Source: Ostreococcus lucimarinus
Taxonomy: Eukaryota
Direction: 5' to 3' (one strand)
Assembly (NCBI GenBank): GCA_000092065.1
Contig: CP000584.1
DNA length: 64,000 bases
Shown: one piece after another, positions 24,778 through 61,938 of the stretch
Numbering within the stretch: the first letter of the stretch is position 1
Layout of the letters: every line of letters begins with the position of its first letter
Made by a program: the position numbers and the translations under genes
Notes under the pieces: model-generated
Databases searched by the model: none
Told to the model about the DNA's origin: nothing
What the model saw: only the letters and a program-made list of their open reading frames with translations

Positions 24778-24829
24778 GCCGAGCGTCGAGCAGTGCGGCC
24801 TCGCGCGGCAGAGCGCGCCTCGCGGCGGC

Positions 24830-25423
24830 ATGCCGTCGCGCGTGGCGCGCGTCATCGACGCGCTCGACGCGCTCGACGCCGACGTCGAGTTCACGCGCCC
24901 CGGGGACGTGGACGCCGCGCGGTTTTGCGACGTCATGGATGCCATGCTCGAAGTCATCGCCGCGCTCGGCTTCGCGTTCGAGCTCGCGAAGGCGGACGTA
25001 TCGAAGAACGTGCGACGGATTCGAGACGTGGTTCGGGCGCGCGGCGAGGCGCGGGCGTCGCTGTTCGAGGCGATCGCGCGCGACCGCGAGGCGGGCGGAC
25101 GGGTCTGGGTGCCGGCGCTCTGGTTGCGGCGGTTCGGCGGCTTCGTCGTGGGTTTGCTCGGGGAACTCACGCGAGACGCGAGCTTGGATCTCCGGACGTG
25201 CGGGGCGAGGTCGTACGAGCGCGCGCTGAAGCCGTATCACGGGTTCGCGTTGCGAGGGGTTTTCGCGGCGGCGTTGGCGATGCCGCCGAGCAGAGCGCAG
25301 TTCTGCGCTGTGGCTGGGAGCGAGGAGGAGATGCGCGCGTGTGTGGCGAAGTTTGCGCCCGTCATGGACGCGCTCGACGGATTCTTAACGGCGGAAGGGT
25401 TGAACGACCCGACTCCGGTGTAA
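24830..25423 (+). CDS. Glycolipid transfer protein (GLTP/ACD11 family).
   Basis: FCDVMDAMLEVIAALGFAFELAKADVSKNVRRI. ...VWVPALWLRRFGGFVVGLL. YERALKPYHGFALRGVFAAAL. These are collinear with GLTP-fold motifs. Confidence 0.65.
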   Translation: MPSRVARVIDALDALDADVEFTRPGDVDAARFCDVMDAMLEVIAALGFAFELAKADVSKNVRRIRDVVRARGEARASLFEAIARDREAGGRVWVPALWLRRFGGFVVGLLGELTRDASLDLRTCGARSYERALKPYHGFALRGVFAAALAMPPSRAQFCAVAGSEEEMRACVAKFAPVMDALDGFLTAEGLNDPTPV

Positions 25424-27320: not shown

Positions 27321-30300
27321 TTGGCGGCGATGCGCGCCCGGTTCGCGCGCGGCGCGTCGATGTCGGCGCTTCTGCTCGCGCTGTGCGCTTTGGCGTCGCT
27401 CTTAGGCGTCGCTCGGGGCGGTGGTTCGCCGTCGCCGTCCCCCGTGCACTGTTCGGCGAGGTGGATCGACGTCAACAAAGGGGGCTGCCCAAGCTGCGGA
27501 CCAGGCACGTATAGTAAGCGATACCAAATCGATCGCGATCCCGCGTACGATGGACGACGGTGTCCTCATGTCAACGGGCATGTGTCTTATGGACATGATT
27601 GCGAGGCACCGCCATGTCCGCCGCCGCCGCCATCGCCGCCGCCGCCGTCGCCACCGCCGCCGCCGCCGGGACAGTTTGTTCCCGTGCAGGTATCCATCAA
27701 CGATCCCGTGCCGAGAGTGTCAGATGCGTACGACTTTCACATTCTCACCTCACATCCTTCGTGCGATTCACAAAACGATTGTTTTGAGAGTCACATCGAG
27801 ACGGACGTGAGCGAGCATCACGTCGGACTCAGGTGCGACGTCACCGTGCAAAAGAAGGACCAAGTTTGTGCGACATTCGGTCGTCACATGCCTTGCAGGC
27901 TGTGGAATGACTTTTATCCAACAACTTTAACCCTCACGGATGAGCATGGTGACATCGTCGAAGGCGATTACGTCATTGAGTATGAATGCTACTTTGAACT
28001 CGCAAACGGCGAGCTCGTACCTGAGCCGACCAAGGTGAAGAAGACGCTGCACGAGTTCAGCGTATCCAAAGGGTGCGATTTGAAAATGAATTTGAATCGA
28101 GATTCCAAAGCAGAGCTCGCGGCGTATCTCCTCAGTGGCGCCGATGAATTCAATATCGCTGACTGCTCGAGTTTGAAGAGTATTTACGCCGCGAAGGAGG
28201 CCGTGTTCCGTATTTTCGATTCAAACCCGACAGATGGCCGACTCGATCACGAAGAAATCCTCATCGGTGTTGAGGCACACAGCATGGATACACAGATAGT
28301 GAATCATTGGAAGGACATCGTCGACGCTGAGGGTGGCGATGGACTGTTCCTCACACTTTCGAACTTCATGTCGGCAGACATCGCGCCTCGCGGTTGTCAA
28401 TCCGGCGCCGGTGACGTCGTGACGTTCACGGAGGCGACGTATCCAACGAGTGATCCTGGACGTGAAACGGGATCCAGGCAATGCGGAGAGATGGCGGGAT
28501 CTATGAAGACCACGTGGTCGTTTCCTCGATCAATGCAACTCGGCGATTGGTCGTGCGTATACATCGACGGGCTTTTGTACAGTCAATTGCTCGCCCAAAC
28601 GAGCCGAAACGCCGTATCGATGCAGAACAGCGTGACAGATATTCGCCCTGTCATTGGCTCTTTTCATGATGCAGAGCAATCTCTCGCTGCGCATTTCACG
28701 TTCGCAGGCGTGTCAAACGCAAGGCTGATTTCTTCAGAATCGCCGCGGGCGGATGGCCAAGAAGTGGTTCCAACCCTCTCCATCGATGATACGTATACAG
28801 GTAGTCTGCGAGTCTTCACGGCTTCTCAACACGGTAAACACGGGGCGTGCCTGAACAGCTGCCAAGGTTGTACCTTCCATTCGTACAAGTACATTGGGGA
28901 ACCGTTCAAGAATGATTTTGCCGTGTCGATGCAAATATTCATTCCTACACAGCTTTCGAGCAATTCTGGCTTTCGGAAGAAGTCGGAACCTCTCATGAGC
29001 TTCACTTCAGATGCATCTGGTAGTATGCAGCACAGCATCAAGTTACGATTGGGCACGGCACTCTCGAAGTTTTCACTTCAATTTATACATGAAAAAGTAA
29101 ACAGCGTGACGGGTCATCGAGATGAGCTATCAGAGCCCATTCCTCTGGGTGCGTTTGGACGCTGGACGTCAATTGGATTTTCTTTCCACCCAAAAGATGG
29201 TCTCACGTTGTACAGGTTCAGCGTTGAGGGAGGTAGGGTAACACATGAAATCAAGGTGCCGAGCAATAACGATGAGTGGAAATCGAGACTGCGAGACACG
29301 TTGCATTTGATGCACCGTCGTGAATTTTTCAAAGAGAACCGAATAGAATACGACGATCTTCGCGTGTACACTGGCCGAGTAAAGAACAACACATTCATAG
29401 ACGCGTATAAGTGCGACGCGTTGGGTGCTCAGTGTGCACCTCGAGCACACGCAACGCCAAACTCACGTCGCGTCGTATGTGTCATGCTGGATGTCCACGA
29501 CAGTAGTGGAGGAGACGCCCGTGCGCCGTATTCCTGCACCGGTGCCCTGTACTACGACGGCGGCGCCATTGAAGTGCGCGCGAAAATGGATCTCACTGGA
29601 GTCGCATTCGAATTCCGCGACACGGCTTGGCACGAATCATCTTTTGAAATCTTGCGACGCACGCACGATCCAAGTGGCGATAACGCGTTTGATACAGTCG
29701 TACTCGTTGACGGTGGTTTGAACGGCTGTGCGTCGATGTTTTCGTCGATTACGTATCTCGACCGAGAGGCTGGTCAGCAGCCCAACTCTCGCTGGCAGTA
29801 CAAGATCAAAACAAAGACGGACGATGTCGATGTAAGCTTTTTGTCGCTCACTACTCATTTTAAAACGCCTTGGATTGGTCAAATTGTGGGCGAAGTGATG
29901 GCCGGTAAGTCGGTTGTTCCTGTTGGCGAAGTCCGCATTTGCGCAGACTTCGTGAAGCCCAACGGTACTTTTCTGATGTATCGCAGTCACAATCACTCTA
30001 ATCTGGCTTTGCACATGCCCGTCGTTCACACATCTAATCTCACTATCTCAGCAGAACAACAGGCGCATCGAGCTACGGACGGCTTACACTTGAAGCCTGA
30101 CTCGATTCGTGTCGCAAGAGGACAGTATTTGCGCGTCAACCTCGACTATTGGAGCGCAATACAAGAGGTCGAAGTGTGCACCGCAACCGGAGAGAACAAT
30201 TTCAGAACTTTCGTGCGGGAGTTCGATCCGGGATACTCTGTGAATCACGGTCACGAGTGCAAATTACGAGAAACTAACGCAACCCAAACTTTCAGCGCAT

Positions 30301-33300
30301 CGCGCGTGACTTGCTTCTTCTTCACCTGTCGGGGCTCAAAGCTTACGACATTGCATGGTCAGTTCGTAACCGCAGCCGTCGAAGAAGGCGACGACGTGAG
30401 AATGACGCAAATTCGTGTTGTTGGTCAGCGTGGCAGATGCACGTTCACGGCGATAAGTGATGACGATGGGCGCTATGCAATCGATGTACTCGATCGCTCC
30501 GGGAACGTCCCCGTCAAGGCGAATATGCTCATCGGCGCGTATAAGGAAGAAGTTTTTGGTGAAGAATTCGAAGTTCCCCTCCTGGATACGAGCGATTCAG
30601 ATGGCGATGATGATTCGCTAAACGTTCCGACGCGAGTGTTACTCGTACTTCGTCGAAAGAACAGTTCGCTTGCGGCGCGTCTCGGGCATGAAGTCCCGGA
30701 TTACAGCAGCTCCTACTACGACGGCGAAACGCATCAGTATCTGGATCAACATGGATATAGTCCACCGTATGGCAGCTCCTACTACGACGGCGAAACGCAT
30801 CAGTATCCGGATCAACATGGATACAGTCCACCGTTCGGCAACACGCCATATGTGCACACTATTTACGATAACGCCTACGATTCAGGCGTTCCTGCCGCCA
30901 AAGTAGAGTTCCAAAGTTTGACGAATTTACGTCTGGAAAACACAACTCTTATGAAGAAAGATGGAGTTGCTGATGGTTGGAATGCAGGGGGGTCCTCGAA
31001 TCAGTCAATGTTTAATGTCACGGGTCGTTTTACTGGAATGGACGCGGTTGAGGGTATCAGGGTCGAATGCTCCTGCGATGATGGCGAATATGTCGTTGGT
31101 TTGAGCTACGCAGAGCACATAGCTAACTTTTCCAAAGCAGCGACCGAATTTGCCATTCACTGTCGTGGTAAAGGCTATGAGCCAGCCATCATTTCAGGTG
31201 GTCGCTCTTACGCAAATTCAAATAACTATCGGATGGCCATGGAGACGAGACCATCGCATCACATGACGGATCTATACGATGTGTACCAGTCAACTGACAT
31301 CACATCTTCGCCACCCATCTCCACGGCGAATGATTTCTCATATGCAGCAGCGCAGAGGCGACTACTGGCTCCAACGAGTTCGTACCCTGCAAGAAGCCCG
31401 ACGTCAAACGAGTATCCAACGACGAGCCCGACGCCAAGCAGTCAATTATTGAACTCTTATCCTCAGTCGTATGATGCGCAAACGAATGAGTATCCTCAGT
31501 CGTATGATGCGACGACGTCTACTTATTTTCCACCCTACCACATCGATGACTATCTCGATCGAGGCTATCGTTCAAACATGTGTATGAAGAAGACATTCAC
31601 CATTAAACTTACACGCAGTGGGCGTGTTTTGTTTTATGAAACGCAAGGCCATTGGCTGTACGATCATCCGGTGCAGCATGAAAATTTTCACCATACTCAG
31701 ACGTGGCAAACTGGTGGACAGTCGCCGCCGTACGGCTACACGGAGCAAACGCCACCGTACGGCTACGCGGAGCAAACGCCGCCGTACTCTGCGCGCGACA
31801 AGTCTTCCCTGGGCGCACATGCCGACGTTTCGCACACGGGCCAAGCTTTGCATGAGTACCATGAACCTGCTCAACTCATAGTACCGGTCGCGTACGCAGA
31901 AAGAGCACACAGCCCCTTGTTTGTGCGAATGGTGGTAATTTCACAAAATGTGACGCTGAGCGACGCCGACATACGTTGGACAGTGCCGACTCCCTCACCG
32001 CCGCCATCACCGCCACCATCACCACCGCCACCGTCACCACCGCCATCACCACCACCACCGCCGCCGCCGCCGTCCCCGCCGCCGCCGCCGCCTTCACCGC
32101 CGCCGCCGCCGCCGTCGCCACCGCCGTCGCCGCCGTCGCCGCCGCCGCCGCCCCCTGCGAAAGCTATCAGAGGTAACAGCGTCGATTGGACGGTGAAGAA
32201 GAACGTCGATAGTACCTCATCGGGGGGAGTTTTCTTGGTCGGATGGAATTCGAAGGGTGCTGCAGTGAGCGCGCGGGCGATCCATTCGTCCTCAAATGTC
32301 ACTCGAGGGATATCTGCAACTTTGGAACGTGGGCCTTATTCAATGGGTCACACTTGCGTAGGTCTGACGAGCTCTGCGGATCGCGAGACGGTTGATAGTT
32401 CTAACATCGATTTCGCCATGTGTTGCGAATGGGGTTATCTTGGTGTTTTTGAAAAGGGATCGCGCAAATGGCGTGCTAGTGGAAACTTGCAGGATAGTTG
32501 TTCACAAACGGACACGCTACAAATCGTCGTGAACGATGGGGATGGCGCGATCGAGTACTTCAAGAATCGGCGTCGCGTGTATACCAGTCAACGGACACCT
32601 CAGTATCCGCTTCACGCAGACGCTGAAGTCTATTTCGGAAGACTGGGTGAAGTTGTTTGGATTGAACGAATTCCATCACCGCCTCCTTCTCCTCCTCCAC
32701 CGCCTTCACCGCCGCCGCCACCATCACCGCCCCCGCCGCCCCCGCCTTCACCGCCGCCATTGCATCAGTTTACATCCGCGGATGTAGATCCACGCATCAA
32801 CACGGCCGCGGCTATTCCGCACATCACACGCGAGGAGTTCGAGGATTTCATCGAAAATATAACAGGCTTCCCTAATTTGGGACACGCCATCGTGATGGAT
32901 GAAATCTGGCAGTATATCGACGACGACGGGGACGGTGTTTTGAGTGAGATTGAGTTCCAGCACGCGTCTTACAAAATGCACACTCACGAGCTGTACGTTG
33001 ATCCCATCATCGTCTACCCCAGCCGCTCGATAAAACATCGCTACGGCTTCAAGGTTTCCAAATCAGTCAGGAGTGATTCTAGTGCCTGCGTGGGTGACGC
33101 CGTATCTTACGACGGTCCCTCTGCGTCGCTTGGTTCGTGCGAATTGACTTCGGAGAAGGAGCCTGTAGAGATTACATTATGGGGAAATGGTTTTGCTGGC
33201 ACACCGTCGACGACCACTATTTACAGCTTGGGAGCTTCCAAGAATGGAGACACTACGTACATCGCGAGCGCGCGCGTTTCTGTCGGCACCTGGTTCACGT

Positions 33301-36300
33301 ACAACGTGTGTGCGGTGATAAAGTTTCGCGTGATAAAGAAAGATGGTCAGTGCTCGATCGTCGTTGACCAAGTTCATAAGATGTGGCCAAGCCTGGTGTC
33401 TTCGAAATGTGGCATCACGCCACCCATCTATGACAGATGGAGCCGCTACATGGTTGCATCCGTTGCGACGTCGGCGACGAACGGCTTTGCTGGCATGAAA
33501 TCTTCTATGTTCAAGAGCTGCGCTGCGAGTTGTGAGAATGCGATTCTACTTCGACACAATAAAACTGTGCCGTACAATACATCTGAGTGGCGAAATTATT
33601 ACGAGTCTCTAGTAAAACGAGACATGGAGCCGACTACTCACGTCGACTGCTCTCACCGAGAAGACATGGTTGTGCTCGGCAGAGAAGAGGACACGCTCGC
33701 CATGCCCATGGTGCTCTCATCCATGGCTAGGAAGCAATGGCTTCTTGACCTCGATTCGGCGCGGCGAAAGCAGAGTACCAGTGAGAATGTCACCAAATTG
33801 CTCGGCACCATGCACTCCAATTTTGCCATCAGTTCAGATTTATGGCTGCCGGATATTGTACACGTGTTTGACAAAATTCCAAAGCCTGAAAATGCTTCTT
33901 CGGGTCCATCCAAGGAGGATGAAATTCACGTGGTGGATAACGATCTCGGGAATTCTTTCTCAAACTTTGCGCGTATAGAAGTAAACCGACTCCAACTTGA
34001 ACACAAGCGCATTGGAGAAAAAACATTTACAGATGACACCGCCGCTGTGGTCAAAGGCGCTATTCTTTTCCCACAGCATCTCACGGGCGGCAGTCCAAAC
34101 TGTGGATTGTTTGAAGCCATGATTCGTGTTTACGACGTGGAAGAAGACGGCGAGCCAGATGTATACTTGACTGAAGAAGATGGCTCGTTCGAGATGGCTT
34201 TAACGCGTGGAAAGACCTTCAGAATTGAAGCCTTTTATGAAGGACACACCATTTGCTACGCCGGAAGTCAGCCTCAAGACGCGACGTCACCCAATGGCTA
34301 TGATTTCGAAGGAGGACAGCAGGCGTGTGTCAAGACGACCCACACGCTCGCTCGTGTCGGCGATGGCAACTTTTTATACTTTACAGATATTACGCGCGGA
34401 AATATTGACCTTGGTTTGTATGCGGGAGAATGCGAAGAAAGGTACACGGGCGAAGATGTCAAGTTTAGGGTAACGCCCGTCAACGGCTGTCATAAACCCG
34501 TCATCGTTTCCGAAACCGACATCAACGAGCGATGGCATACGATTGAGGATATCCTACCGGAAGGCCAGCAGGTTGGCGACAACGCCCGCGTGTGGAAATT
34601 CGCGGCGATGGATTACTCCATCACGCTAGCGAGTGGTTCCGACATCAGTAGAGTTACCGAAAAAGCGTGTCCAGACGAGGCATGCCCAGATTACTGGGAT
34701 GGATGTCAAGTCGAGCCAGACGACATGCGTCAATTTTTCCGCAATCGAAACTCACTCGAAAGACTTGCGCTGATGAGAGATGAATTTGCGTGGAATTCCA
34801 TCAGGTACAAGTATCACGGATATATCTGCGCACAAATAATGGACATTCCTCGAATCACTGATAACGAGCTCAGACTCGAGACTTGCGTAGGCAACTTAAC
34901 TTCCGGAATGTTGACAGAGAAGCATTTACTGGGTTCGTCTGATCACGACACAATCAGCGTCGCCGCTGACAAATCGTTGAGGGTGAAGGTGTTTGAACTT
35001 CACGATCTCACACCGAATGCCGCAGATGCCCCATTTAAATGCACAAAGTTTCCAAATACGCAAAGTCGCACGGGAAACACGAAATTTTCCGTTCGACAGA
35101 CTGTCACAAATGAAGAAGATAACGTGTGTCATCCAAATCGCGGGGGTGGGCCCCTGTGCGATTTTGAAGTTAATATATCAACGGCTGACGTCGGCAAACT
35201 CATCTTTCCGACGGAAGAAGATACGGATCAGGAAACTACCCAAATGGTCATTGCCGCGGGGTATCCAAACCTTGCAAACCCGTATCGACGAGAAGTCACG
35301 ATCACTGTGACACGCGACGATACACCCTTGGACGGTGGTCTTGGGCGATCGCTGCAAGCAACGATGACGCGAGTACTTATCCCATTGGGCTCCAAGCCAC
35401 GAGGAGGATTTGACACGGGAGATGACACCTTGTGGGCGACAGTGCCTATTGATGGATTGGTATACACAGTGGTGCACGATCCGCCAGGTGGTAATTCTGT
35501 AGCCGAGCTGCAATCTGGATCTGAGATTACGATTCAGTGGGAAATCGCTTCAGCTCGCTCTGTGAAAGTTGGCAGATCGATCGAGCTCAACCTCGGTTTC
35601 GCAGGTAAAACTACGTTTGATCTAGGCTTTAACGCCGGTTACACCGCAGAGGCTGCTACAAAATCGAGCGTTCTCACGTTGGAGACGGAGAAAGATTTCG
35701 GACACAAAGAATCTGGTCCACACTTCACCGCGAAGGCGACGTCCGAAGAAGTGTGGGAGACGACGGTTACGATGGATCGACACATCCGGAGCAGCGACGA
35801 TGAAGGCACACCTGGACGTCCGGGCGACGTCATTTTAGGAGGTGGTATCGAACTCGTGTACAAGGTATCAGATACGCTCGACGTAGGTACTGTTGACGAC
35901 TGCTTAACTACGGGTGTTGGTATAACCTGGTTACCGCGTCGACCAACCTCTTACGTGTTCAACGTCTTTTCCATCGAGTCTCAAGTGCTGCCGAATCTCT
36001 ACTTTCTGTATACTGTCGCCAAGTCTGGCGAAAATACGGCGAAGACACCGTCAGATAGAATCGTCAAGGATGGATCGGGTATGCGATATGAGTGCGCGTC
36101 ATCGCCGTGCTCTAACTCAGAAATGAATCAACATTGGGCAAGCTACATACTGAGACGAATCCATACGTGGAAGCGAACGTTGCTTTGGTCCTCGCCCGAA
36201 GTTTACTGGATGCCAAAGGGTGCGAGTTATGAAAAGAACTACAAAGCATACGATCGCATCAATGAACCGTACATCGATTCACGTTCCCTCTTTGAACGGC

Positions 36301-39300
36301 GCATGTCATCCGCGTTGGCACAGCGTGATTCCAAGCGTGATCCATCGATTCTGAGGGTTGCATTCGAGCTGAGTAAAATGTGGTACGAGCAATCCCTCCT
36401 CAGTGTGGGTGACAGAGGCATGCTTCGTTCGAAACCTCACATCCCTGCTTTATTTCTCACTGCAGGACTGGAAATTCCGAGACTAGCACCATTTCTCGAA
36501 AATTCACGAGCAGCGTCTTTTGCTTCGATCGCGTACCCACGTTCGTCAAAGGGTGCGTGGTCATTCGATGAAGTGGTAAATGACCAAACAAACATCGGAA
36601 TGTACTCTTTTGGGATGAACGAAGTCGCCGCTCGTGACCTCGATGCGCAGGTCAAGAAGTGCGACGGTGTACTGTGCGAGACCAGTGGAGAATTCGACGC
36701 CGCACCACATGACGTGTTGTACGGAGGATCACTGAACGCCATGGGTGAGACCGGCGACCTTCGCGCCACGGACCCTTCGCGCTTAATGGCGTCTCTTACT
36801 GGGACTCCTGGTCCAACCGGAATGCTTCAAAAGGATGCCGTCGCGAGCGGCGGAGAAGAGGAGACGATATACTTAACTTTTGGTGGTGGTGGACATGCGT
36901 TGGAATTCTCTTTCAGCGCAAAGGAGTCCATCAACCGCGATGCATTCGCGTACTCGCTTGACTTTGATGCAAGCGCCGAAAACACAAACAACATGAAGTT
37001 CTCGGGCTCACCAATACCCACCATCGAGTTTAATCGAGCGACAGACATCGCCAGAACGCTGTCCACGGATCGTATCTTTGCGTGGAACAAGTACGGAACG
37101 ATGACGACGGTGTATTCTCTCGCGGATCCAGATTATGGCGATAAATTTGTTCTGAAAGTCGGAAGCGATGCGCGATTCGGCACACCGCTCTTCATGACAA
37201 TGGGCGGTAGATCCATGTGTCCCGGCGAATTGACGACGATGTGGCGCGAATCGGGAAATATCATTGAAAGACCTCGTTCGTTATCCTTTGGTACGCTCCC
37301 GCTGAACCCAGGAGAGCGCGCTGTTCACGAAATAACTATTCAGAATGAATCTCCATACAGAGAAGCCCGACCGCTGTATTTACGTATCGTTGATGGACAC
37401 TCAGAGTCGTTACGATCGCTGGTGCGCGCAGCGCTGAACATCATCAAGGATGATGAATCAGCTTCGGCACAACATGTAGCCACAGTTGTCACGAACACTG
37501 CTGCAAACTCAGTAGCTTCGGCATCCCTGTCCATGGCCACTGTCATAGAGAAAGTTGAAGAGGCAGCTGGCAGCGGCGACGCGACTGCCCTGAGTGTTAT
37601 GCAAGTCGTCGTCGCCGAAGTCGAGAGCGTCAGTAAATCGGCTATGACGCCGTTACAGGATGTAGAGATTACCGTGAACGGCAAGAAGGTGGTACCTGTC
37701 GCTGAGTGGCTTCCTTTGAAGCATGTCATCGGCGATGCTCTTGAATCACAACGGACCGTTCACAAGACTGTGTTCAACTTGGGTTTCAAGCCAACGGAAA
37801 CCTCGCATCCTATCATTGAACACATTCAAGTTGAAATTGGATCTCTGTGCGAAATGCAAATCTCATATGATGGAGCTGGTCTGTATCGCGATCCAATCGC
37901 CGTCAAGGCTCAACTTGAAAAGATGCGATGGGAATCCAAGTGTCCGAGCGTGACGTTTTCCAAGTCCACCGTCATTGACAGTGAAATCACGCGCGCAAAC
38001 GCGACTGCGCCGCCGCTTCGTTTGGTGGTGGTCAATCCCGATTCTGGAAACTTGTGGGATCCTAGCAGCGCCAGTAGACTCGAAAAGGTTGTCGTACAGT
38101 ACAGACCGCTTTCGGGTGGCGAATGGATTACTGCGAAGGAGGATCATGTGAAGTACAAAGACGACTCGTACAAGAAAAATCTCATCTGCGAACATTCTCG
38201 AACGAGCGGATGCACGTGGGACTGGGATTTGAACAACAAATACGACAAGTTACTCAGCGGATACAAGGACGGTGCGTACGAGGTTCGCGTTAAAAACTTT
38301 TGCTCGGGCGGTGACGCTTTCGCCGCGACCGAGGTGCACGAGTACGTCGGCGATAAGACGCTATTACTCTTCACGGATACGAAAAACCCGCTCGTCGAGC
38401 AGCACGTGTCGTCACCCGCGGCGCGCACCGTCACCATCGTGTACGCGGAGGAAATCGATTGCGCAGATCCACCGACCTTCGAAGTGGCGCAAACTCACGA
38501 CGAATCCTGCGTCGCCGTCGCGGGCGATGGCACAGTCAGCGCGGCTATCATTCGTGAGTCTTACGAGCAAACGTGCCTCAACACCGGCGTTCAAGGAAAG
38601 TGGATGATGCAATATCCCAACAATGAGGATGCTCCGAATCCTGGATTGTACAGAGTCACCGTCAGAGACATACGTGACAAAGCCGGTAACCCTTTCGTCG
38701 GCGATTTGACGATAAACTACGTCGTGGGTGACGTCGTCGATGACTGTGACATTTTGAAAGCATCCAAAGATGACCTCACCCCGCTCATCGGTTTGGGAAA
38801 TTTCGCCGATGTTCAAGGCAATACCATCTGGGGGGTGTACTCTAAAAATATCGACTGTCGCTCGCAGCGAGTCACCATCACGAAGAGTTTTGATCAATCG
38901 TGCCGATCCACGAGCACAGAAATTGGCACAACCAACTTCACGCTTGCGTGCGTGAACGTCGGCGGAACGGGACAATGGATCATGAAATATCCTGAAGATC
39001 TGGAATCTGGAGTTTACACCGTGCGAGTTCAAGGCGTGAAAGATCGCACTGGTCACGAAGCGTCTTCTTTCATTCGCAAGTTTACAACGCTTCATAACTC
39101 GGATGGAACGTTGAACGAATGCGACGACGCGTCCGCCTCTTTTGCCATCGGACTTGGGCGGATGCGTCGTCGACGTCTCGCTCCGAGCGCGTCCGCGACA
39201 AAGACGTCCACAAACTTGATTCTGTCCGATCTCGCCATCGTCGTGTTCGCTATCTGCGCGCTCGTGATGATCATCAAGAAAAGAATCGCGCTGCCCGCGG

Positions 39301-39371
39301 ATGAGAGTGAGCTGCGCGAACGCGAAGCCTTCGACAAGGTGGACATTCCGCGCTATGGTTCATCTTTGTGA
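27321..39371 (+). CDS. Giant single-exon gene encoding a 4016-aa secreted, C-terminally membrane-anchored protein. It has an N-terminal signal peptide, Cys-rich and extensin-like PPSPPP modules, an EF-hand loop and internal duplications. No family assignment is possible from sequence alone.
   Basis: A 12,051-nt uninterrupted ORF is vanishingly unlikely by chance. Signal peptide MAAMRARFARGASMSALLLALCALASLLGVARG. PPSPPP blocks at 27617-27672, 31990-32157 and 32675-32760. EF-hand loop DDDGDGVLSEIEFQHA (~32921-32962). TM anchor LILSDLAIVVFAICALVMIIKKR (~39211-39280) with a short tail. Confidence 0.85.
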   Translation: MAAMRARFARGASMSALLLALCALASLLGVARGGGSPSPSPVHCSARWIDVNKGGCPSCGPGTYSKRYQIDRDPAYDGRRCPHVNGHVSYGHDCEAPPCPPPPPSPPPPSPPPPPPGQFVPVQVSINDPVPRVSDAYDFHILTSHPSCDSQNDCFESHIETDVSEHHVGLRCDVTVQKKDQVCATFGRHMPCRLWNDFYPTTLTLTDEHGDIVEGDYVIEYECYFELANGELVPEPTKVKKTLHEFSVSKGCDLKMNLNRDSKAELAAYLLSGADEFNIADCSSLKSIYAAKEAVFRIFDSNPTDGRLDHEEILIGVEAHSMDTQIVNHWKDIVDAEGGDGLFLTLSNFMSADIAPRGCQSGAGDVVTFTEATYPTSDPGRETGSRQCGEMAGSMKTTWSFPRSMQLGDWSCVYIDGLLYSQLLAQTSRNAVSMQNSVTDIRPVIGSFHDAEQSLAAHFTFAGVSNARLISSESPRADGQEVVPTLSIDDTYTGSLRVFTASQHGKHGACLNSCQGCTFHSYKYIGEPFKNDFAVSMQIFIPTQLSSNSGFRKKSEPLMSFTSDASGSMQHSIKLRLGTALSKFSLQFIHEKVNSVTGHRDELSEPIPLGAFGRWTSIGFSFHPKDGLTLYRFSVEGGRVTHEIKVPSNNDEWKSRLRDTLHLMHRREFFKENRIEYDDLRVYTGRVKNNTFIDAYKCDALGAQCAPRAHATPNSRRVVCVMLDVHDSSGGDARAPYSCTGALYYDGGAIEVRAKMDLTGVAFEFRDTAWHESSFEILRRTHDPSGDNAFDTVVLVDGGLNGCASMFSSITYLDREAGQQPNSRWQYKIKTKTDDVDVSFLSLTTHFKTPWIGQIVGEVMAGKSVVPVGEVRICADFVKPNGTFLMYRSHNHSNLALHMPVVHTSNLTISAEQQAHRATDGLHLKPDSIRVARGQYLRVNLDYWSAIQEVEVCTATGENNFRTFVREFDPGYSVNHGHECKLRETNATQTFSASRVTCFFFTCRGSKLTTLHGQFVTAAVEEGDDVRMTQIRVVGQRGRCTFTAISDDDGRYAIDVLDRSGNVPVKANMLIGAYKEEVFGEEFEVPLLDTSDSDGDDDSLNVPTRVLLVLRRKNSSLAARLGHEVPDYSSSYYDGETHQYLDQHGYSPPYGSSYYDGETHQYPDQHGYSPPFGNTPYVHTIYDNAYDSGVPAAKVEFQSLTNLRLENTTLMKKDGVADGWNAGGSSNQSMFNVTGRFTGMDAVEGIRVECSCDDGEYVVGLSYAEHIANFSKAATEFAIHCRGKGYEPAIISGGRSYANSNNYRMAMETRPSHHMTDLYDVYQSTDITSSPPISTANDFSYAAAQRRLLAPTSSYPARSPTSNEYPTTSPTPSSQLLNSYPQSYDAQTNEYPQSYDATTSTYFPPYHIDDYLDRGYRSNMCMKKTFTIKLTRSGRVLFYETQGHWLYDHPVQHENFHHTQTWQTGGQSPPYGYTEQTPPYGYAEQTPPYSARDKSSLGAHADVSHTGQALHEYHEPAQLIVPVAYAERAHSPLFVRMVVISQNVTLSDADIRWTVPTPSPPPSPPPSPPPPSPPPSPPPPPPPPSPPPPPPSPPPPPPSPPPSPPSPPPPPPAKAIRGNSVDWTVKKNVDSTSSGGVFLVGWNSKGAAVSARAIHSSSNVTRGISATLERGPYSMGHTCVGLTSSADRETVDSSNIDFAMCCEWGYLGVFEKGSRKWRASGNLQDSCSQTDTLQIVVNDGDGAIEYFKNRRRVYTSQRTPQYPLHADAEVYFGRLGEVVWIERIPSPPPSPPPPPSPPPPPSPPPPPPPSPPPLHQFTSADVDPRINTAAAIPHITREEFEDFIENITGFPNLGHAIVMDEIWQYIDDDGDGVLSEIEFQHASYKMHTHELYVDPIIVYPSRSIKHRYGFKVSKSVRSDSSACVGDAVSYDGPSASLGSCELTSEKEPVEITLWGNGFAGTPSTTTIYSLGASKNGDTTYIASARVSVGTWFTYNVCAVIKFRVIKKDGQCSIVVDQVHKMWPSLVSSKCGITPPIYDRWSRYMVASVATSATNGFAGMKSSMFKSCAASCENAILLRHNKTVPYNTSEWRNYYESLVKRDMEPTTHVDCSHREDMVVLGREEDTLAMPMVLSSMARKQWLLDLDSARRKQSTSENVTKLLGTMHSNFAISSDLWLPDIVHVFDKIPKPENASSGPSKEDEIHVVDNDLGNSFSNFARIEVNRLQLEHKRIGEKTFTDDTAAVVKGAILFPQHLTGGSPNCGLFEAMIRVYDVEEDGEPDVYLTEEDGSFEMALTRGKTFRIEAFYEGHTICYAGSQPQDATSPNGYDFEGGQQACVKTTHTLARVGDGNFLYFTDITRGNIDLGLYAGECEERYTGEDVKFRVTPVNGCHKPVIVSETDINERWHTIEDILPEGQQVGDNARVWKFAAMDYSITLASGSDISRVTEKACPDEACPDYWDGCQVEPDDMRQFFRNRNSLERLALMRDEFAWNSIRYKYHGYICAQIMDIPRITDNELRLETCVGNLTSGMLTEKHLLGSSDHDTISVAADKSLRVKVFELHDLTPNAADAPFKCTKFPNTQSRTGNTKFSVRQTVTNEEDNVCHPNRGGGPLCDFEVNISTADVGKLIFPTEEDTDQETTQMVIAAGYPNLANPYRREVTITVTRDDTPLDGGLGRSLQATMTRVLIPLGSKPRGGFDTGDDTLWATVPIDGLVYTVVHDPPGGNSVAELQSGSEITIQWEIASARSVKVGRSIELNLGFAGKTTFDLGFNAGYTAEAATKSSVLTLETEKDFGHKESGPHFTAKATSEEVWETTVTMDRHIRSSDDEGTPGRPGDVILGGGIELVYKVSDTLDVGTVDDCLTTGVGITWLPRRPTSYVFNVFSIESQVLPNLYFLYTVAKSGENTAKTPSDRIVKDGSGMRYECASSPCSNSEMNQHWASYILRRIHTWKRTLLWSSPEVYWMPKGASYEKNYKAYDRINEPYIDSRSLFERRMSSALAQRDSKRDPSILRVAFELSKMWYEQSLLSVGDRGMLRSKPHIPALFLTAGLEIPRLAPFLENSRAASFASIAYPRSSKGAWSFDEVVNDQTNIGMYSFGMNEVAARDLDAQVKKCDGVLCETSGEFDAAPHDVLYGGSLNAMGETGDLRATDPSRLMASLTGTPGPTGMLQKDAVASGGEEETIYLTFGGGGHALEFSFSAKESINRDAFAYSLDFDASAENTNNMKFSGSPIPTIEFNRATDIARTLSTDRIFAWNKYGTMTTVYSLADPDYGDKFVLKVGSDARFGTPLFMTMGGRSMCPGELTTMWRESGNIIERPRSLSFGTLPLNPGERAVHEITIQNESPYREARPLYLRIVDGHSESLRSLVRAALNIIKDDESASAQHVATVVTNTAANSVASASLSMATVIEKVEEAAGSGDATALSVMQVVVAEVESVSKSAMTPLQDVEITVNGKKVVPVAEWLPLKHVIGDALESQRTVHKTVFNLGFKPTETSHPIIEHIQVEIGSLCEMQISYDGAGLYRDPIAVKAQLEKMRWESKCPSVTFSKSTVIDSEITRANATAPPLRLVVVNPDSGNLWDPSSASRLEKVVVQYRPLSGGEWITAKEDHVKYKDDSYKKNLICEHSRTSGCTWDWDLNNKYDKLLSGYKDGAYEVRVKNFCSGGDAFAATEVHEYVGDKTLLLFTDTKNPLVEQHVSSPAARTVTIVYAEEIDCADPPTFEVAQTHDESCVAVAGDGTVSAAIIRESYEQTCLNTGVQGKWMMQYPNNEDAPNPGLYRVTVRDIRDKAGNPFVGDLTINYVVGDVVDDCDILKASKDDLTPLIGLGNFADVQGNTIWGVYSKNIDCRSQRVTITKSFDQSCRSTSTEIGTTNFTLACVNVGGTGQWIMKYPEDLESGVYTVRVQGVKDRTGHEASSFIRKFTTLHNSDGTLNECDDASASFAIGLGRMRRRRLAPSASATKTSTNLILSDLAIVVFAICALVMIIKKRIALPADESELREREAFDKVDIPRYGSSL
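30708..30839 (+). repeat. In-frame 2 x 66-nt tandem duplication inside the giant gene (SSYYDGETHQY[L/P]DQHGYSPP[Y/F]G).
   Basis: Two adjacent near-identical 66-mers differing at ~4 positions. Similar short PPYGY(T/A)EQT and NEYPQSYDA(Q/T)T repeats follow at ~31440-31800. Confidence 0.85.
31990..32157 (+). repeat. Low-complexity (CCGCCGYCR)n tract encoding (S)PPPSPPPP extensin/HRGP-like repeats. Similar tracts lie at 27617-27672 and 32675-32760.
   Basis: Direct reading: ccgccgccatcaccgccaccatcacc...ccgccgccgccgccccct. Confidence 0.8.
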
Positions 39372-59769: not shown

Positions 59770-60663
59770 TTACGCGCCGCGACCGATTTGCGCGGCTTGA
59801 CCTTGCATCAAGCCCATGCGAATATCGCGGGACGCCTCCGCGACGGCGCCCGGACCGGAAGGCACAAAAATGGTCGAGTTGCCGCCTTGCGTGCCGACTT
59901 CCTTCATGGTGTCAAAGTACTGCGTCATCATCATCATCTCCAAAACGTCTTTGCTTGAGATACCATCCACAGATTCTTGGAAGTCAACCACGGATTCGCG
60001 CAAACCGGCGATGATGGCTTGACGTTGACGCGCCATCCCCGTACCCGCGAGATACTTGGACTCCGCATCGGCTTCGGCAGCCTTGACGACCATGATCTTA
60101 TCCGCCTCGGCGCGATCTTGCGCCGCGACTCTCGCGCGCTGCGCGGCGTTGATCTCGTTCATCGCCTGTTTGACTCGCGCGTCCGGCGCGATGTCCGTCA
60201 CGAGCGTGTTCATGATTTGATACCCGAATCCCTCCATCGACTTGCTCAGCAACTCCTTCACGCTCTGCGCGATCTCTTCCTTGCTCTCGAACACGTCGTC
60301 CAACTTGATCCTCGGCACCGTCGATCGCACGACGTCGAACACGTACGACCGAATCTGCGCCTTGGAATCCGTCAGTTTGTAAAACGCGTCGTACAATCGC
60401 GTCTCGTCCATCGACAGCACCTGATACTGCGTGCTCACGACGATCGTCACGAACACGTTATCCTTCGTCTTCGTCTCCACGCTCACGTCCAGCGACTGCA
60501 CGCGCGTCGACACCGTCCCCGCGACCGCCTGCCCGATGAACGGGTTCACGAAGTGGCACCCCTCGCGCGCGAAGAACGCAAACTTCCCGCACTGCTGGAT
60601 CACCTGCACCGTGCCCGTGGGCACGCACGTGAAGCAGCAGCACCCCGTGGGGCCGGCCGTCAT
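59770..60663 (-). CDS. Hypersensitive-induced-reaction (HIR) / band-7 SPFH-domain protein with an N-terminal Cys cluster (MTAGPTGCCCFTC).
   Basis: VQVIQQCGKFAFFAREGCHFVNPFIGQAVAGTVSTRVQSLDVSVETKTKDNVFVTIVVSTQYQV is collinear with plant HIR proteins. Confidence 0.85.
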   Translation of the reverse strand: MTAGPTGCCCFTCVPTGTVQVIQQCGKFAFFAREGCHFVNPFIGQAVAGTVSTRVQSLDVSVETKTKDNVFVTIVVSTQYQVLSMDETRLYDAFYKLTDSKAQIRSYVFDVVRSTVPRIKLDDVFESKEEIAQSVKELLSKSMEGFGYQIMNTLVTDIAPDARVKQAMNEINAAQRARVAAQDRAEADKIMVVKAAEADAESKYLAGTGMARQRQAIIAGLRESVVDFQESVDGISSKDVLEMMMMTQYFDTMKEVGTQGGNSTIFVPSGPGAVAEASRDIRMGLMQGQAAQIGRGA

Positions 60664-60755
60664 GTCGGTCGTCGTCGTCGTCGCGCGGCGATGTGCGTCG
60701 TCGTCGCGATGCGATGGCGCGCGAGATCGCCACGTGGCTTTTTTAAAAAATAAAA

Positions 60756-60814
60756 CTGTTTGCGCATATAAAAAGTATAAAAAGCCTTTTTATACTTTTT
60801 ATATGCGCAAACAG
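60756..60814. promoter_or_regulatory. AT-rich perfect inverted repeat (29-nt arms around a single C) with a TATAAAA box on each arm. Candidate bidirectional core promoter between the divergent HIR gene (-, ATG 60663) and the 60868 gene (+).
   Basis: ctgtttgcgcatataaaaagtataaaaag-c-ctttttatactttttatatgcgcaaacag. Flanked by tttttaaaaaataaaa. Everything around it is about two-thirds GC. Confidence 0.5.
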
Positions 60815-60867
60815 TCCGACGCTCTTTTCGACACCGCGCCGCTGGGCACGCCGGACAGCGACACACG

Positions 60868-61938
60868 ATGGCGACGGCGCGCGCGACCGCGGGCGCGCCG
60901 GCGCGCGCGACGACGGCGCGCTGGATCGCGACGCGATCGCGCGCGACGCGCGCGACGCGCGGGACCCGCGGCCGCGCGCGCGCGACGCCGAACGACGGCG
61001 AAGCGCACGCGGCGTACCTGCGAGACGTCGCGGCGACGCGCGCGCCGGCGGAGCTCGAGGCGCTCGCGCGCGTGCTCGACGCGCTGGGGTGCGAAACGAT
61101 CGCGCCGAACGCGCGGCGAGGGATCCACCCGCTGGTGATGCCGCTGGCGAGGACGCGCGAGGGAGGGGTGATCGGACTCATGGTGACCGAGGACGACGGC
61201 GAGGCGACGCCGGTGGTCGAGGTGCGGGACGGCGCGCACGCGACGATGCTGGCGAAGAGCGCGAGGGATTACGTGCACAGAGCGATCGTCGAGGAGGAAG
61301 CGATGAGCGATGAGCAGACGACGACGGTGGCGGCGGCGGCGGGCGCGGTGGGGGTGAGCCTGCACGCGCACGGGGCGTTTAAGACGTCGGGGAAGGAGTT
61401 CGACGTGTACGTGACGACGCAAATCGGGAAGTTTCCGTCGTCCATGGAGGGGCTGGTTCGGAGACACTTGAAACGAAACGACGAACAGTCGGCGTTGATC
61501 ACGTGTGATCTGTACAAGGCGACGTTCGGCGATTGGGGGGCGCCGCACGTGTTCATCTCTGATTTATATTCCAAATTAGGACGCGACGAGGAGGCGCGAG
61601 ACGCCGCGCGACAGGCGTTGCAAACGCCGTGGTCCACCATCGGCGGCAGAGACGCCATCACGCGAATGATTGACGTCGCCGGGTGGTCTGGTAAGACCGT
61701 GGCAGAGATCAAAGAAGTCCTAGAGAGCCGACGCGGTCCATCCGCGGCGGCGTTCGACGGCCCGAAGAGCGAAAAGCAACTCGCGCGCGAAGAGGGCGAG
61801 CTCTTGCTCGACCAAATCGCCGCGGGTGAGATCGAATCCTCGACCGTCAATCAGCGTTTGGCGGAGTGTTACATGAACGCCGGCAAGCCCGCGCTCGCGA
61901 AGTTCATCATGTGCGGCGCGGGGATGCCGGCGCTGTGA
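60868..61938 (+). CDS. Hypothetical protein, possibly organelle-targeted (Ala/Arg/Thr-rich N-terminus).
   Basis: 356-codon ORF. The second half has ordinary globular composition (e.g. FDVYVTTQIGKFPSSMEGLVRRHLKRNDEQSALITCDLYKATFGDWGAPHVFISDLYSKLG). No family recognised. Confidence 0.45.
   Translation: MATARATAGAPARATTARWIATRSRATRATRGTRGRARATPNDGEAHAAYLRDVAATRAPAELEALARVLDALGCETIAPNARRGIHPLVMPLARTREGGVIGLMVTEDDGEATPVVEVRDGAHATMLAKSARDYVHRAIVEEEAMSDEQTTTVAAAAGAVGVSLHAHGAFKTSGKEFDVYVTTQIGKFPSSMEGLVRRHLKRNDEQSALITCDLYKATFGDWGAPHVFISDLYSKLGRDEEARDAARQALQTPWSTIGGRDAITRMIDVAGWSGKTVAEIKEVLESRRGPSAAAFDGPKSEKQLAREEGELLLDQIAAGEIESSTVNQRLAECYMNAGKPALAKFIMCGAGMPAL

What the first reader, a model, noticed from the sequence alone, without database searches (positions are those of the whole stretch)
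60756..60814. Perfect AT-rich palindrome with mirrored TATA boxes between two divergent genes
It is a 59-nt element with 29-nt perfectly complementary arms, ctgtttgcgcatataaaaagtataaaaag / ctttttatactttttatatgcgcaaacag, each arm reading GCGCATATAAAAAGTATAAAAAG towards one of the two flanking divergent genes. It is embedded in an AT island (tttttaaaaaataaaa) in otherwise ~2/3-GC DNA. The ATGs lie ~95-110 nt away on either side. The geometry fits a symmetric bidirectional core promoter. A cruciform-forming element, a replication-origin-like site or the foldback of a tiny MITE are alternatives.
Basis: seen in the sequence. Interest (0 to 1): 0.6.

Follow-up and report, generated by a model that had tools for sequence, protein, structure and literature searches.

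The report
Young palindromic TATA element, Ostreococcus promoter
A real, single-copy 61-bp perfect palindrome lies in the short promoter spacer between two back-to-back genes of the tiny marine alga Ostreococcus lucimarinus; it is a recent, still-polymorphic inverted duplication of an older TATA-containing promoter element and most likely serves as a two-way core promoter, which makes it an evolutionary curiosity rather than a new kind of system.

Summary
Window 60755-60815 is a perfect palindrome with 30-nt arms and one central C. Simulated sequence gives arms of at most 9-12 nt. The window is nuclear DNA of the green alga Ostreococcus lucimarinus. The element lies in the 204-bp spacer between divergent genes: HIR (Band 7/SPFH, minus strand) and PAB (chloroplast ATPase biogenesis, plus strand). 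Its four TATAAAA motifs are the only ones in any promoter-side spacer of the 64 kb.

It is not a dispersed repeat or MITE: it occupies one locus, has no target-site duplication, and related DNA carries a single arm at the same site. Of 13 near-identical contigs, 8 have the perfect palindrome, 4 carry uncompensated changes, and one has a single arm. A sister lineage (92% identical) and three other Ostreococcus-like lineages lack the second arm. All sampled lineages retain an intact or degenerate copy of the adjacent G-box GCCACGTGGC.

Most likely one template-switch-type insertion of 48 nt mirrored an existing promoter element. That placed a forward TATA about 33 bp from the mirrored outer end on each strand, which fits a symmetric two-way TATA core promoter. 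No transcription start data could be reached, so function remains inferred. Interest is modest.

The parts
60786..60815 (-). PAB-proximal arm, the ancestral copy. On the minus strand it reads ACTGTTTGCGCATATAAAAAGTATAAAAAG, with two TATAAAAA motifs facing HIR that start at 60803 and 60794.
   Evidence: The arm is continuous with the PAB-side flank in the single-arm allele L028 and in the sister lineage L082-86. Its outer half, ACTGTTTRYRCATA, lies 48-53 nt from the PAB ATG in the window, L011 and L082.
60785..60785 (.). Single central base (C) of the palindrome.
   Evidence: It is changed by a small indel in contig L009.
60755..60784 (+). HIR-proximal arm, the derived perfect reverse-complement copy. 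It carries two TATAAAAA motifs facing PAB at 60767-60774 and 60776-60783.
   Evidence: It is absent from L028, L082-87, L011, L080/81 and L014.
60739..60754 (.). A/T run TTTTTTAAAAAATAAA between the G-box and the palindrome. It is part of the 48-nt segment (60738-60785, or equivalently 60744-60791) that is missing in L028. That segment is bounded by the direct repeat CTTTTT at 60738-60743 and 60786-60791.
60729..60738 (.). Palindromic G-box GCCACGTGGC, the cis-element retained across the sampled lineages in this spacer.
   Evidence: It is intact in the window type and as GCCACGTGG(C) in L011, L014 and L080/81. It is degenerate in L028 (GCCACCCGGC) and in the sister lineage (GCCGCGCGGC in L082-86, GCCACGCGGC in L087). 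Related GCCA-N2-3-TGGC palindromes lie upstream of HIR in Micromonas-like and Bathycoccus contigs.
60721..60728 (-). Decayed ACGT box. It reads GATCTCGC on the minus strand, where L028 and other lineages have GACGTCAC.
60803..60805 (+). Upstream ATG inside the right arm. It is out of frame with PAB, and its frame stays open to 61138.
   Evidence: ORF 60431..61138 is in the same frame. I infer that the PAB transcription start lies downstream of it.
60765..60767 (-). Mirror-image upstream ATG inside the left arm. It is out of frame with HIR, and its frame ends at a TGA that overlaps the HIR ATG.
   Evidence: minus-strand ORF 60660..61181 is in the same frame. I infer that the HIR transcription start lies downstream of it.
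59770..60663 (-). HIR gene (hypersensitive-induced-response, Band 7/SPFH protein, 297 aa).
   Evidence: Pfam Band_7, E = 1.9e-32. The protein is identical to O. lucimarinus CCE9901 XP_001417563.1.
60868..61938 (+). PAB gene (protein in chloroplast ATPase biogenesis, 356 aa, with an Ala/Arg/Thr-rich N-terminal extension).
   Evidence: Precomputed Pfam hits PAB_middle and PAB_C on the same gene in L001-L009; translation.

Best explanation
The 61-bp palindrome is a single-copy, evolutionarily young inverted duplication inside the shared promoter spacer of the divergent HIR and PAB genes of Ostreococcus lucimarinus.

Origin. An older promoter element of about 30 bp, ACTGTTTGCGCATATAAAAAGTATAAAAAG, sat about 50 nt upstream of the PAB start codon and directly abutted a G-box. 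A 48-nt insertion then added a perfect reverse-complement copy of it plus a short A/T run. The most likely cause is a single replication template-switch or fold-back event.

Function. The resulting AT-rich island most likely acts as the TATA-type core of a bidirectional promoter, with the retained G-box as its regulatory site. After the duplication each strand has a forward TATAAAAAG whose inner copy lies about 33 bp upstream of the mirrored outer end (GCGCAAACAGT) of the opposite arm. This predicts transcription starts near 60806-60813 on the plus strand for PAB and near 60764-60757 on the minus strand for HIR.

The perfect symmetry is a by-product of how the element arose, not something selection maintains.

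Shown: existence, uniqueness, position, polymorphism, phylogenetic distribution and derived state. Inferred: the mutational mechanism, TBP use of the TATA motifs and the start sites.
For: Reality and rarity
- 30-nt perfect arms against 9-12 nt in simulations.
- The arm occurs nowhere else in the window.

Organism and context
- The HIR protein is identical to O. lucimarinus XP_001417563.1.
- The divergent HIR/PAB pair, with H+-PPase and other neighbours, recurs in many metagenome contigs.

Promoter context
- In a rough ORF-based gene map, convergent spacers are AT-rich (GC 0.34-0.52) and the other divergent spacers are GC-rich (0.60-0.78). This spacer is 0.53.
- The four TATAAAA motifs here are the only ones in any promoter-side spacer of the 64 kb.
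- Plant TATA boxes lie at -40 to -21, occur in about 16-20% of genes, and are linked to stimulus-responsive genes (PMC2576244).

Single copy
- A scan of 241 million metagenome records with ACTGTTTRYRCATATAAAAA found O. lucimarinus-like DNA only at this locus (L028, L029, L046).

Young and derived
- Among 13 contigs, mostly more than 99% identical to the window, 8 have the perfect palindrome.
- L004 and L029 have the outer 10 nt of one arm replaced.
- L008 has one uncompensated A>C change.
- L009 has a centre indel.
- L028 has only one arm.
- The sister lineage L082-87 (92% nt identity) has ACTGTTTGCGCATA, then an A-run abutting the G-box remnant, as L028 does. It has no second arm.
- L011 has a single arm. 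L080/81 and L014 have none. All keep the G-box.

Mechanism precedent
- Template switching can create a perfect reverse-complement repeat in one event (PMC8794818; PMC5453318).

Geometry
- The inner TATA at 60776 lies 33 and 37 nt upstream of the CA dinucleotides at 60808/9 and 60812/13. The minus strand mirrors this.
- Out-of-frame upstream ATGs at 60803 (+) and 60767 (-) lie just before the predicted starts.
Against: - No 5'-end data for either gene could be reached, so use of the TATA motifs and the start sites are inferred only.
- The palindrome is dispensable. L028 and all related lineages keep both genes intact without it, and two lineages (L014, L080/81) have no TATA at all at this promoter.
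- The forward TATA of the ancestral arm points at HIR, yet its spacing is conserved relative to PAB. Which gene it originally served is therefore ambiguous.
- The retained G-box and ACGT box lie between the arm and HIR, where a TATA-driven HIR transcript would start. That is unusual placement.
- The 48-nt difference from L028 is flanked by a 6-nt direct repeat (AAAAAG), which also fits a deletion in L028. Polarity rests on outgroup comparison only.
- About 17 nt of the insertion (the A/T run) are not explained by a simple copy of the arm.
Confidence: 0.5

Rival explanations
1. Neutral mutational scar. The second arm is a recent template-switch insertion that drifted to high frequency and does nothing. 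The promoter runs on the G-box and the GC-rich flanks, as in related lineages that lack any TATA.
For: - The palindrome is absent from every other lineage and from one conspecific haplotype, with both genes intact.
- Uncompensated changes segregate in it (L004/L029, L008, L009).
- The other divergent promoter spacers in the window have no TATA.
- L014 and L080/81 have the same gene pair without any AT element.
Against: - The perfect form is the majority allele (8 of 13 contigs).
- It creates canonical TATA-to-start spacing on both strands.
- Its outer half (ACTGTTTRYRCATA) is kept at a fixed distance from PAB in three lineages, so at least the ancestral arm looks functional.
Confidence: 0.3
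2. Structural switch. Negative supercoiling generated between the two divergent transcription units extrudes the palindrome as a cruciform, which modulates factor binding or promoter output.
For: - Perfect 30-bp arms with an AT-rich centre and a 1-nt spacer.
- A strong single-strand hairpin of -30.1 kcal/mol, z = -11.8.
- A position between divergent genes, where the twin-domain model (established knowledge) predicts negative supercoiling.
Against: - There is no direct evidence.
- Symmetry-breaking variants segregate without compensation.
- Related lineages do without it.
- No other promoter spacer in the window has a comparable perfect palindrome.
Confidence: 0.07
3. Foldback transposon or MITE remnant, or another dispersed repeat, inserted into the spacer.
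For: - Terminal inverted symmetry.
- A sub-threshold Rfam hit to MIR1120, 35 bits against a gathering score of 86. From my own knowledge that family is MITE-derived.
Against: - It occupies a single locus in O. lucimarinus-like DNA across a scan of 241 million records.
- It has no target-site duplication: the flanks are TAAA and CCGA.
- One arm pre-exists at the same position in L028, L082-87 and L011, so the element arose in place.
- The viral collection gives only unrelated AT-rich phage matches.
Confidence: 0.02
4. Replication-origin-like site: an AT-rich palindrome between divergent genes, as in herpesvirus oriL.
For: Only the general resemblance of an AT-rich palindrome in GC-rich DNA between divergent genes.
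Against: - This is a eukaryotic nuclear locus with no known sequence-defined origins.
- The element is polymorphic and lineage-specific.
- Nothing else origin-like was seen nearby.
Confidence: 0.03
5. Transcribed RNA hairpin, either a miRNA-like precursor or a translational block in a 5' UTR.
For: Perfect 30-bp stem. Weak Rfam miRNA-hairpin hits at E = 8.7e-5, far below gathering score.
Against: - The scores are less than half the gathering threshold.
- The element lies between two 5' ends.
- A full hairpin plus the upstream ATGs in either 5' UTR would impair translation of the downstream gene.
- From my own knowledge, Ostreococcus is reported to lack canonical RNAi components. I did not test this here.
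Confidence: 0.02

Closest known systems
Bidirectional promoters with oppositely oriented TATA boxes, for example divergent histone gene pairs in green algae and yeasts (from my own knowledge), and bidirectional gene pairs in plants and O. tauri (PMC4035068)
   Same: Two divergently transcribed genes lie about 200 bp apart and share one short spacer. TATA consensus motifs are present on both strands, and a shared upstream-type element (the G-box) lies in the spacer.
   Different: Here the two TATA-bearing halves are a perfect 30-nt reverse-complement pair. They face inward, so each forward TATA sits in the arm farther from its gene, and the predicted transcripts overlap at their 5' ends. The arrangement is species-specific and polymorphic rather than conserved. 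Transcription starts are unmapped.
Perfect inverted repeats created by replication template-switch mutations (PMC8794818, PMC5453318)
   Same: A perfect reverse-complement copy lies immediately adjacent to its source. It appears in one lineage, while outgroups and one conspecific haplotype keep the single-copy state.
   Different: The insertion also carries about 17 nt of A/T run that are not a copy of the arm, and it is flanked by a 6-nt direct repeat. The four switch points could not be reconstructed unambiguously.
Plant G-box (CACGTG) plus TATA promoters of light- and stress-regulated genes
   Same: A palindromic GCCACGTGGC lies next to the TATA element upstream of a stress-associated gene family (HIR). 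The G-box is intact in four lineages and degenerate in L028 and the sister lineage.
   Different: The G-box lies on the gene-proximal side of the ancestral TATA with respect to HIR. No binding factor or regulation has been tested in Ostreococcus for this locus.
MITE or foldback elements and the miRNA hairpins derived from them (Rfam MIR1120/1122)
   Same: A short, AT-rich, perfect hairpin-forming sequence.
   Different: It is single-copy, has no target-site duplication and arose in place from a resident sequence. The Rfam score of 35 bits is far below the gathering score of 86.

Membership tests
Bidirectional (divergent) RNA polymerase II promoter | Two protein-coding genes in head-to-head orientation with start codons less than 1 kb apart | tested here: met
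   The HIR ATG is at 60663 (-) and the PAB ATG at 60868 (+), giving a 204-bp spacer. The same arrangement is seen in L001-L009, L011-14 and L080-86.
Bidirectional (divergent) RNA polymerase II promoter | Transcription start sites of both genes map within or next to the shared element | not testable with these tools
   No 5'-end or RNA-seq data were reachable. The predicted starts at 60806-60813 (+) and 60764-60757 (-) are inference from spacing.
TATA-box core promoter | TATAWAW consensus about 25-35 bp upstream of the transcription start, bound by TBP | tested here: inconclusive
   The consensus is present four times, twice per strand, and is unique among promoter-side spacers of the window. 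Its position relative to the real starts, and TBP binding, were not tested.
MITE / foldback transposable element | Multiple dispersed copies in the genome | tested here: not met
   The arm 20-mer was found in O. lucimarinus-like DNA only at this locus, in the window and in the metagenome scan.
MITE / foldback transposable element | Target-site duplication flanking terminal inverted repeats, with an empty site in relatives | tested here: not met
   The flanks TAAA and CCGA are not a duplication. Relatives have one arm already at the site rather than an empty site.
Template-switch-generated inverted repeat | Perfect reverse-complement copy adjacent to its source, with the ancestral state lacking the copy | tested here: met
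   100% complementarity. The single-arm state is seen in L028, in the sister lineage L082-87 and in L011.
Template-switch-generated inverted repeat | The whole change is explained by one four-point switch event | tested here: inconclusive
   30-31 of the 48 inserted nt are the reverse-complement copy. The A/T run and the flanking AAAAAG repeat need extra assumptions.
miRNA precursor (Rfam MIR1120, mir-4922) | Score at or above the family gathering threshold | tested here: not met
   35.3 bits against 86, and 28.9 against 82.
Sequence-defined replication origin | Initiator binding sites or mapped initiation | not testable with these tools
   No origin data were available, and no positive evidence was seen.

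The most novel reading that the evidence does not exclude
A single template-switch mutation converted a one-sided promoter element into a self-contained, perfectly symmetric TATA-initiator core. In that core each arm's TATA box drives initiation in the opposite arm. The palindrome-present and palindrome-absent polymorphism in wild O. lucimarinus populations would then change the expression or 5' ends of HIR and PAB, possibly with supercoiling-dependent cruciform extrusion. That would be a natural, datable example of the birth of a bidirectional core promoter.
Probability: 0.12. Interest if true: 0.55.

Novelty: new member of a known kind. Interest (0 to 1): 0.28.

Why it matters
If the promoter reading is right, this locus is a compact natural experiment. 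Conspecific haplotypes carry zero, partial or full mirroring of a TATA element in a 200-bp spacer, in a transformable picoalga genus whose promoters are otherwise mostly TATA-less and GC-rich. It could show how one replication error creates or rewires a two-way core promoter. It could also show how much TATA orientation matters in vivo. Otherwise it is an ordinary single-locus curiosity with no genome-wide significance.

Tried and rejected
1. Bacterial, phage or archaeal readings. I rejected these once the flanking proteins proved to be plant-type HIR and PAB and the HIR protein matched O. lucimarinus exactly.

2. Dispersed repeat or MITE. The window search, the metagenome scan and the viral scan gave only this locus plus unrelated AT-rich chance hits. 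The exceptions are two other Mamiellales-like promoters that carry the 20-mer as a single copy.

3. Known RNA family. Rfam in E-value mode gave only sub-threshold miRNA-hairpin matches.

4. Transcription-start evidence. I hoped short transcript-like contigs would mark 5' ends. The look-up returns the longest contigs first. L087, which starts inside the conserved half of the arm, is a 1.3-kb contig of unknown type, so no inference was drawn from it.

5. Upstream regions in the lineage whose HIR is about 91% identical. L010, L064, L065 and L066 are truncated at or near the ATG and were uninformative.

6. Literature. No paper in the library describes this element or maps Ostreococcus TATA boxes or transcription starts. 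Piganeau et al. 2009 on phylogenetic footprinting in Ostreococcus was cited by another paper but is not held.

7. Dating gain and loss of the arm with a PPase tree. The Ostreococcus-like lineages are nearly equidistant, so the tree does not resolve it. The L028 row in that tree is unreliable because my coordinates were off-frame.

8. Constraint or instability from population variation. With about 0.2-0.4% divergence among haplotypes, finding 5 of 13 contigs altered within 61 nt is not clearly different from expectation, so I make no claim either way.

Full report
**1. The observation**

The repeat finder extends it by one base on each side. The arms are 60755-60784 and 60786-60815, 30 nt each and 100% complementary, with a single C (60785) between them.

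- The 23-mer GCGCATATAAAAAGTATAAAAAG occurs only at these two places in the 64 kb, even with three mismatches allowed. Shuffles give zero matches.
- In 20 first-order Markov simulations of the window the longest perfect palindrome arm was 9-12 nt. The second-best real one has 13-nt arms.
- As single-stranded DNA the element folds at -30.1 kcal/mol, z = -11.8 against shuffles.
- The AT run TTTTTTAAAAAATAAA lies at 60739-60754.

The palindrome edges are 92 nt from the left gene's ATG (60663, minus strand) and 53 nt from the right gene's ATG (60868, plus strand). The geometry is therefore not symmetric.

**2. What the DNA is**

The left ORF (59770-60663, minus strand) is a Band 7/SPFH protein of the plant HIR type (Pfam E = 1.9e-32). 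It is identical over all 297 residues to XP_001417563.1 of Ostreococcus lucimarinus CCE9901.

The right ORF (60868-61938, plus strand) carries the PAB_middle and PAB_C domains in precomputed hits on identical genes. It has an Ala/Arg/Thr-rich N-terminal extension typical of a plastid transit peptide.

The window is therefore nuclear DNA of a picoeukaryotic green alga, not a prokaryote or a virus.

The same locus was recovered from many marine metagenome assemblies: YL1 gene, small ORF, PAB, then in the opposite direction HIR, then H+-PPase and Rpp14.

**3. Context within the window**

I built a rough ORF-based gene map that ignores introns.

- Convergent spacers, where 3' ends meet, are AT-rich (GC 0.34-0.52).
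- The other divergent, promoter-side spacers are GC-rich (0.60-0.78).
- The HIR/PAB spacer is the exception at 0.53.

TATAAA[AT] occurs ten times in the window. Six occurrences are inside coding ORFs. The other four are the two per strand inside this palindrome. So this is the only promoter-side spacer in 64 kb with canonical TATA motifs. The architecture is not a general feature of this genome's divergent promoters.

**4. Copy number and mobile-element test**

I scanned the metagenome collection with ACTGTTTRYRCATATAAAAA, the outer two-thirds of the arm, made degenerate to catch a related species. The scan gave 49 stretches.

- Three are this locus in O. lucimarinus-like DNA: L046, L029 and L028.
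- Eight belong to two other GC-rich, Mamiellales-like promoter regions, with a single copy each.
- The rest are unrelated AT-rich DNA (GC 0.11-0.46), as expected by chance in a collection of that size.

A viral scan gave only AT-rich phage hits. The flanks of the palindrome (TAAA and CCGA) are not a target-site duplication. Rfam gave only sub-threshold miRNA-hairpin hits: 35 bits against a gathering score of 86.

**5. Variation within the species**

Thirteen sequences cover the element. Full-length identity to the window is 99.6-99.8% for L001-L009, 99.2-99.3% for the short contigs L029 and L046, and 99.0% overall for L028.

| State of the element | Sequences |
|---|---|
| Perfect palindrome | window, L001-3, L005-7, L046 (8) |
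| Outer 10 nt of the HIR-side arm and part of the A/T run replaced (GCGCAAACAGTTTTATTTT to AAAATATATTTTTC), leaving 20-nt arms | L004, L029 |
| One uncompensated A>C in a TATA motif | L008 |
| Small indel at the centre | L009 |
| Single arm only | L028 |

L028 is 99.5% identical to the window over 10 kb but only 97% over the 2.6 kb next to the element. It reads ...ACTGTTTGCGCATATAAAAAGTATAAAAAG|CCACCCGGCGACGTCAC... and so lacks 48 nt: the second arm plus the A/T run. The missing segment is bounded by the direct repeat AAAAAG.

Both genes are intact in every allele. Perfect symmetry is the majority state but is neither fixed nor compensated when broken.

**6. Comparison across lineages**

| Lineage | Relation to the window | State of the spacer |
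|---|---|---|
| L082-L086, L087 (sister lineage) | 92% nt identity over 6.9 kb; HIR differs by 4 residues | ACTGTTTGCGCATA-CGGGAAAAAC-GCC(G/A)CGCGGCG-ATTACGTCAC. The outer half of the arm is kept 50 nt from the PAB ATG. There is no TATA and no second arm. The A-run abuts the G-box remnant as in L028. |
| L011-13 | HIR 83% identical | Single arm ACTGTTTATACATATAAAAATACATATAG, 48 nt from the PAB ATG, then 11 nt, then GCCACGTGGC |
| L080/81 | PPase protein about 86% identical | No arm: GGTCGAAAAACC\|GCCACGTGG |
| L014 | PPase cluster contains an O. mediterraneus entry | No AT element; GCCACGTGGC and GACGTCAC present |

Three conclusions follow.

- (i) The G-box is the element kept in all sampled lineages. 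It is intact in four and degenerate in L028 and the sister lineage.
- (ii) ACTGTTTRYRCATA is an older element at a fixed 48-53 nt from PAB, but at a variable 75-230 nt from HIR.
- (iii) The second arm exists only in the main O. lucimarinus haplotype group.

Two outgroups share L028's junction, so the single-arm state is ancestral and the palindrome is a derived 48-nt insertion. It is younger than the roughly 8% split from the sister lineage.

A deletion in L028 between the AAAAAG repeats cannot be fully excluded. It would require the palindrome to have been lost or never gained everywhere else as well.

**7. Origin**

The textbook product of a replication template-switch or fold-back event is a perfect reverse-complement copy immediately next to its source that appears in one lineage. 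Such an event can create a perfect hairpin stem in a single mutation (PMC8794818; PMC5453318).

About 17 nt of the insertion (TTTATTTTTTAAAAAAG) are not a copy of the arm. The final AAAAAG could reflect re-entry 6 nt upstream of the departure point. I could not reconstruct the switch points unambiguously.

**8. How it most likely works (inference)**

The element is the only AT-rich, TATA-bearing tract in a promoter spacer of this region. It sits next to a retained G-box and upstream of HIR. From my own knowledge, HIR belongs to a stress-associated gene family. TATA promoters in plants are enriched among stimulus-responsive genes and lie at -40 to -21 (PMC2576244).

After the duplication, the inner forward TATA on the plus strand starts at 60776. 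That is 33 and 37 nt upstream of the CA dinucleotides at 60808/9 and 60812/13 in GCGCAAACAGT, the conserved outer end of the ancestral arm. The mirror image holds on the minus strand (60794 to about 60762/60758).

This predicts starts near 60806-60813 for PAB and 60764-60757 for HIR. The 5' UTRs would be about 55-62 nt and 94-101 nt, and the two transcripts would overlap at their 5' ends by about 40-55 nt.

Each arm contains an out-of-frame ATG (60803-60805 on the plus strand, 60767-60765 on the minus strand) that would open an ORF overlapping the gene's start codon. Both lie just upstream of the predicted starts. This fits initiation from the inner TATA and argues against transcripts that contain the whole hairpin.

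TBP binds TATA boxes with only a weak orientation preference (established knowledge; not tested here). In the single-arm state, one TATA tract may already have served both directions.

**9. Caveats**

- No transcription start data were obtainable.
- Two lineages run the same gene pair with no TATA at all, and one conspecific haplotype lacks the second arm. The palindrome is therefore dispensable, and its second arm may be neutral.
- The two main haplotypes also differ in their ACGT-core sites. The window type has CACGTG with a decayed GATCTC(A/G)C. L028 has CACCCG with an intact GACGTCAC. The promoter as a whole is turning over.
- I see no evidence for cruciform function or origin activity, and no means to test either here.

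**10. Comparison with what is known, and verdict**

The element behaves like a TATA-containing bidirectional promoter and like a template-switch-generated inverted repeat. Both are known kinds.

- It meets the positional definition of a bidirectional promoter.
- It meets the ancestral-state definition of a template-switch repeat.
- It fails the defining tests of a MITE and of the Rfam miRNA families.

Its unusual aspects are the perfect 30-nt mirroring of a double TATA element, the inward-facing arrangement and its polymorphism in wild populations. I rate it a new member of a known kind, with modest interest (0.28). The main value is as a natural allelic series for testing how a core promoter becomes two-way.

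Noticed in passing
window 27330-39371 (+): A single 4013-codon ORF spans the low-GC stretch of the window (GC about 0.51 against about 0.64 elsewhere). It has an N-terminal signal-like sequence, a proline/serine-rich stretch and a C-terminal hydrophobic anchor. It has no Pfam hit at E <= 1e-5. It looks like a giant surface protein of unknown family with atypical composition.
   Followed up: partly
window 60729-60738; L070 about 2125-2134; L067 about 2120-2130; L073 about 2178-2188: A palindromic GCCA-N2-3-TGGC site, usually preceded by an A-run, lies upstream of HIR across Mamiellales even where the upstream neighbour differs. Ostreococcus has GCCACGTGGC, Micromonas-like contigs have GCCAGGTGGC and GCCAGTCTGGC, and Bathycoccus has GCCAGCCTGGC. 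GACGTCA(C) follows it in the Bathycoccus contig L073, one Micromonas-like contig (L070), L014 and L028; L067 has none. This looks like a conserved HIR promoter module.
   Followed up: partly
window 60721-60738 versus L028 73-92: Two conspecific haplotypes carry alternative ACGT-core sites 10 nt apart. The window type has CACGTG intact and GACGTCAC decayed to GATCTC(A/G)C. L028 has CACGTG decayed to CACCCG and GACGTCAC intact. This may be compensatory binding-site turnover.
   Followed up: no
L054 8757-8776 (also L015, L021, L035, L038, L060); L036 4527-4546 (also L056): The 20-mer ACTGTTTRYRCATATAAAAA recurs as a single copy in two non-orthologous, GC-rich, Mamiellales-like promoter regions. 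One lies between a myo-inositol-1-phosphate synthase gene and an LHC-like gene; there an 11-nt mirrored pair TATATTTTATA/TATAAAAAATA flanks it. The other lies between a P2X-receptor gene and an unknown membrane-protein gene, with the TATA 84 nt from that gene's ATG. My rough estimate of the chance expectation in a 13-Mb, 60%-GC genome is about 1e-5. It may therefore be a recurrent extended TATA motif.
   Followed up: partly
window 24048-24077: The second-longest perfect palindrome in the window is AGGCGTGAAACGT-TATT-ACGTTTCACGCCT (13-nt arms, 4-nt loop). It overlaps the stop codon of the minus-strand ORF 24070-24957.
   Followed up: no
window 9476-9556: An imperfect AT-containing palindrome (29-nt arms, 86% complementary, GATTTTTTCACCTTT / AAAGGTGAAAAAATC) lies in the tandem spacer 9301-9750. 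Direct repeats of CCCCTGGGGCC accompany it.
   Followed up: no
window, all spacers: Convergent (3'-end) spacers are consistently AT-rich (GC 0.34-0.52) and short (53-243 bp). Divergent spacers are GC-rich. In this genome AT islands mark gene ends rather than gene starts.
   Followed up: partly
L028 1-2637 versus 2622-12772: The single-arm haplotype is 97.0% identical to the window over the 2.6 kb next to the element (HIR and part of the H+-PPase gene) but 99.5% over the following 10 kb. This suggests an old or introgressed haplotype block around this promoter.
   Followed up: no
L011 2747-2762 / 2807-2822: In the related lineage with one arm, a weak second AT-rich arm (75% complementary over 16 nt) lies on the far side of the G-box. 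A loose quasi-palindrome around the G-box may therefore predate the perfect one. The match is weak and low-complexity.
   Followed up: no
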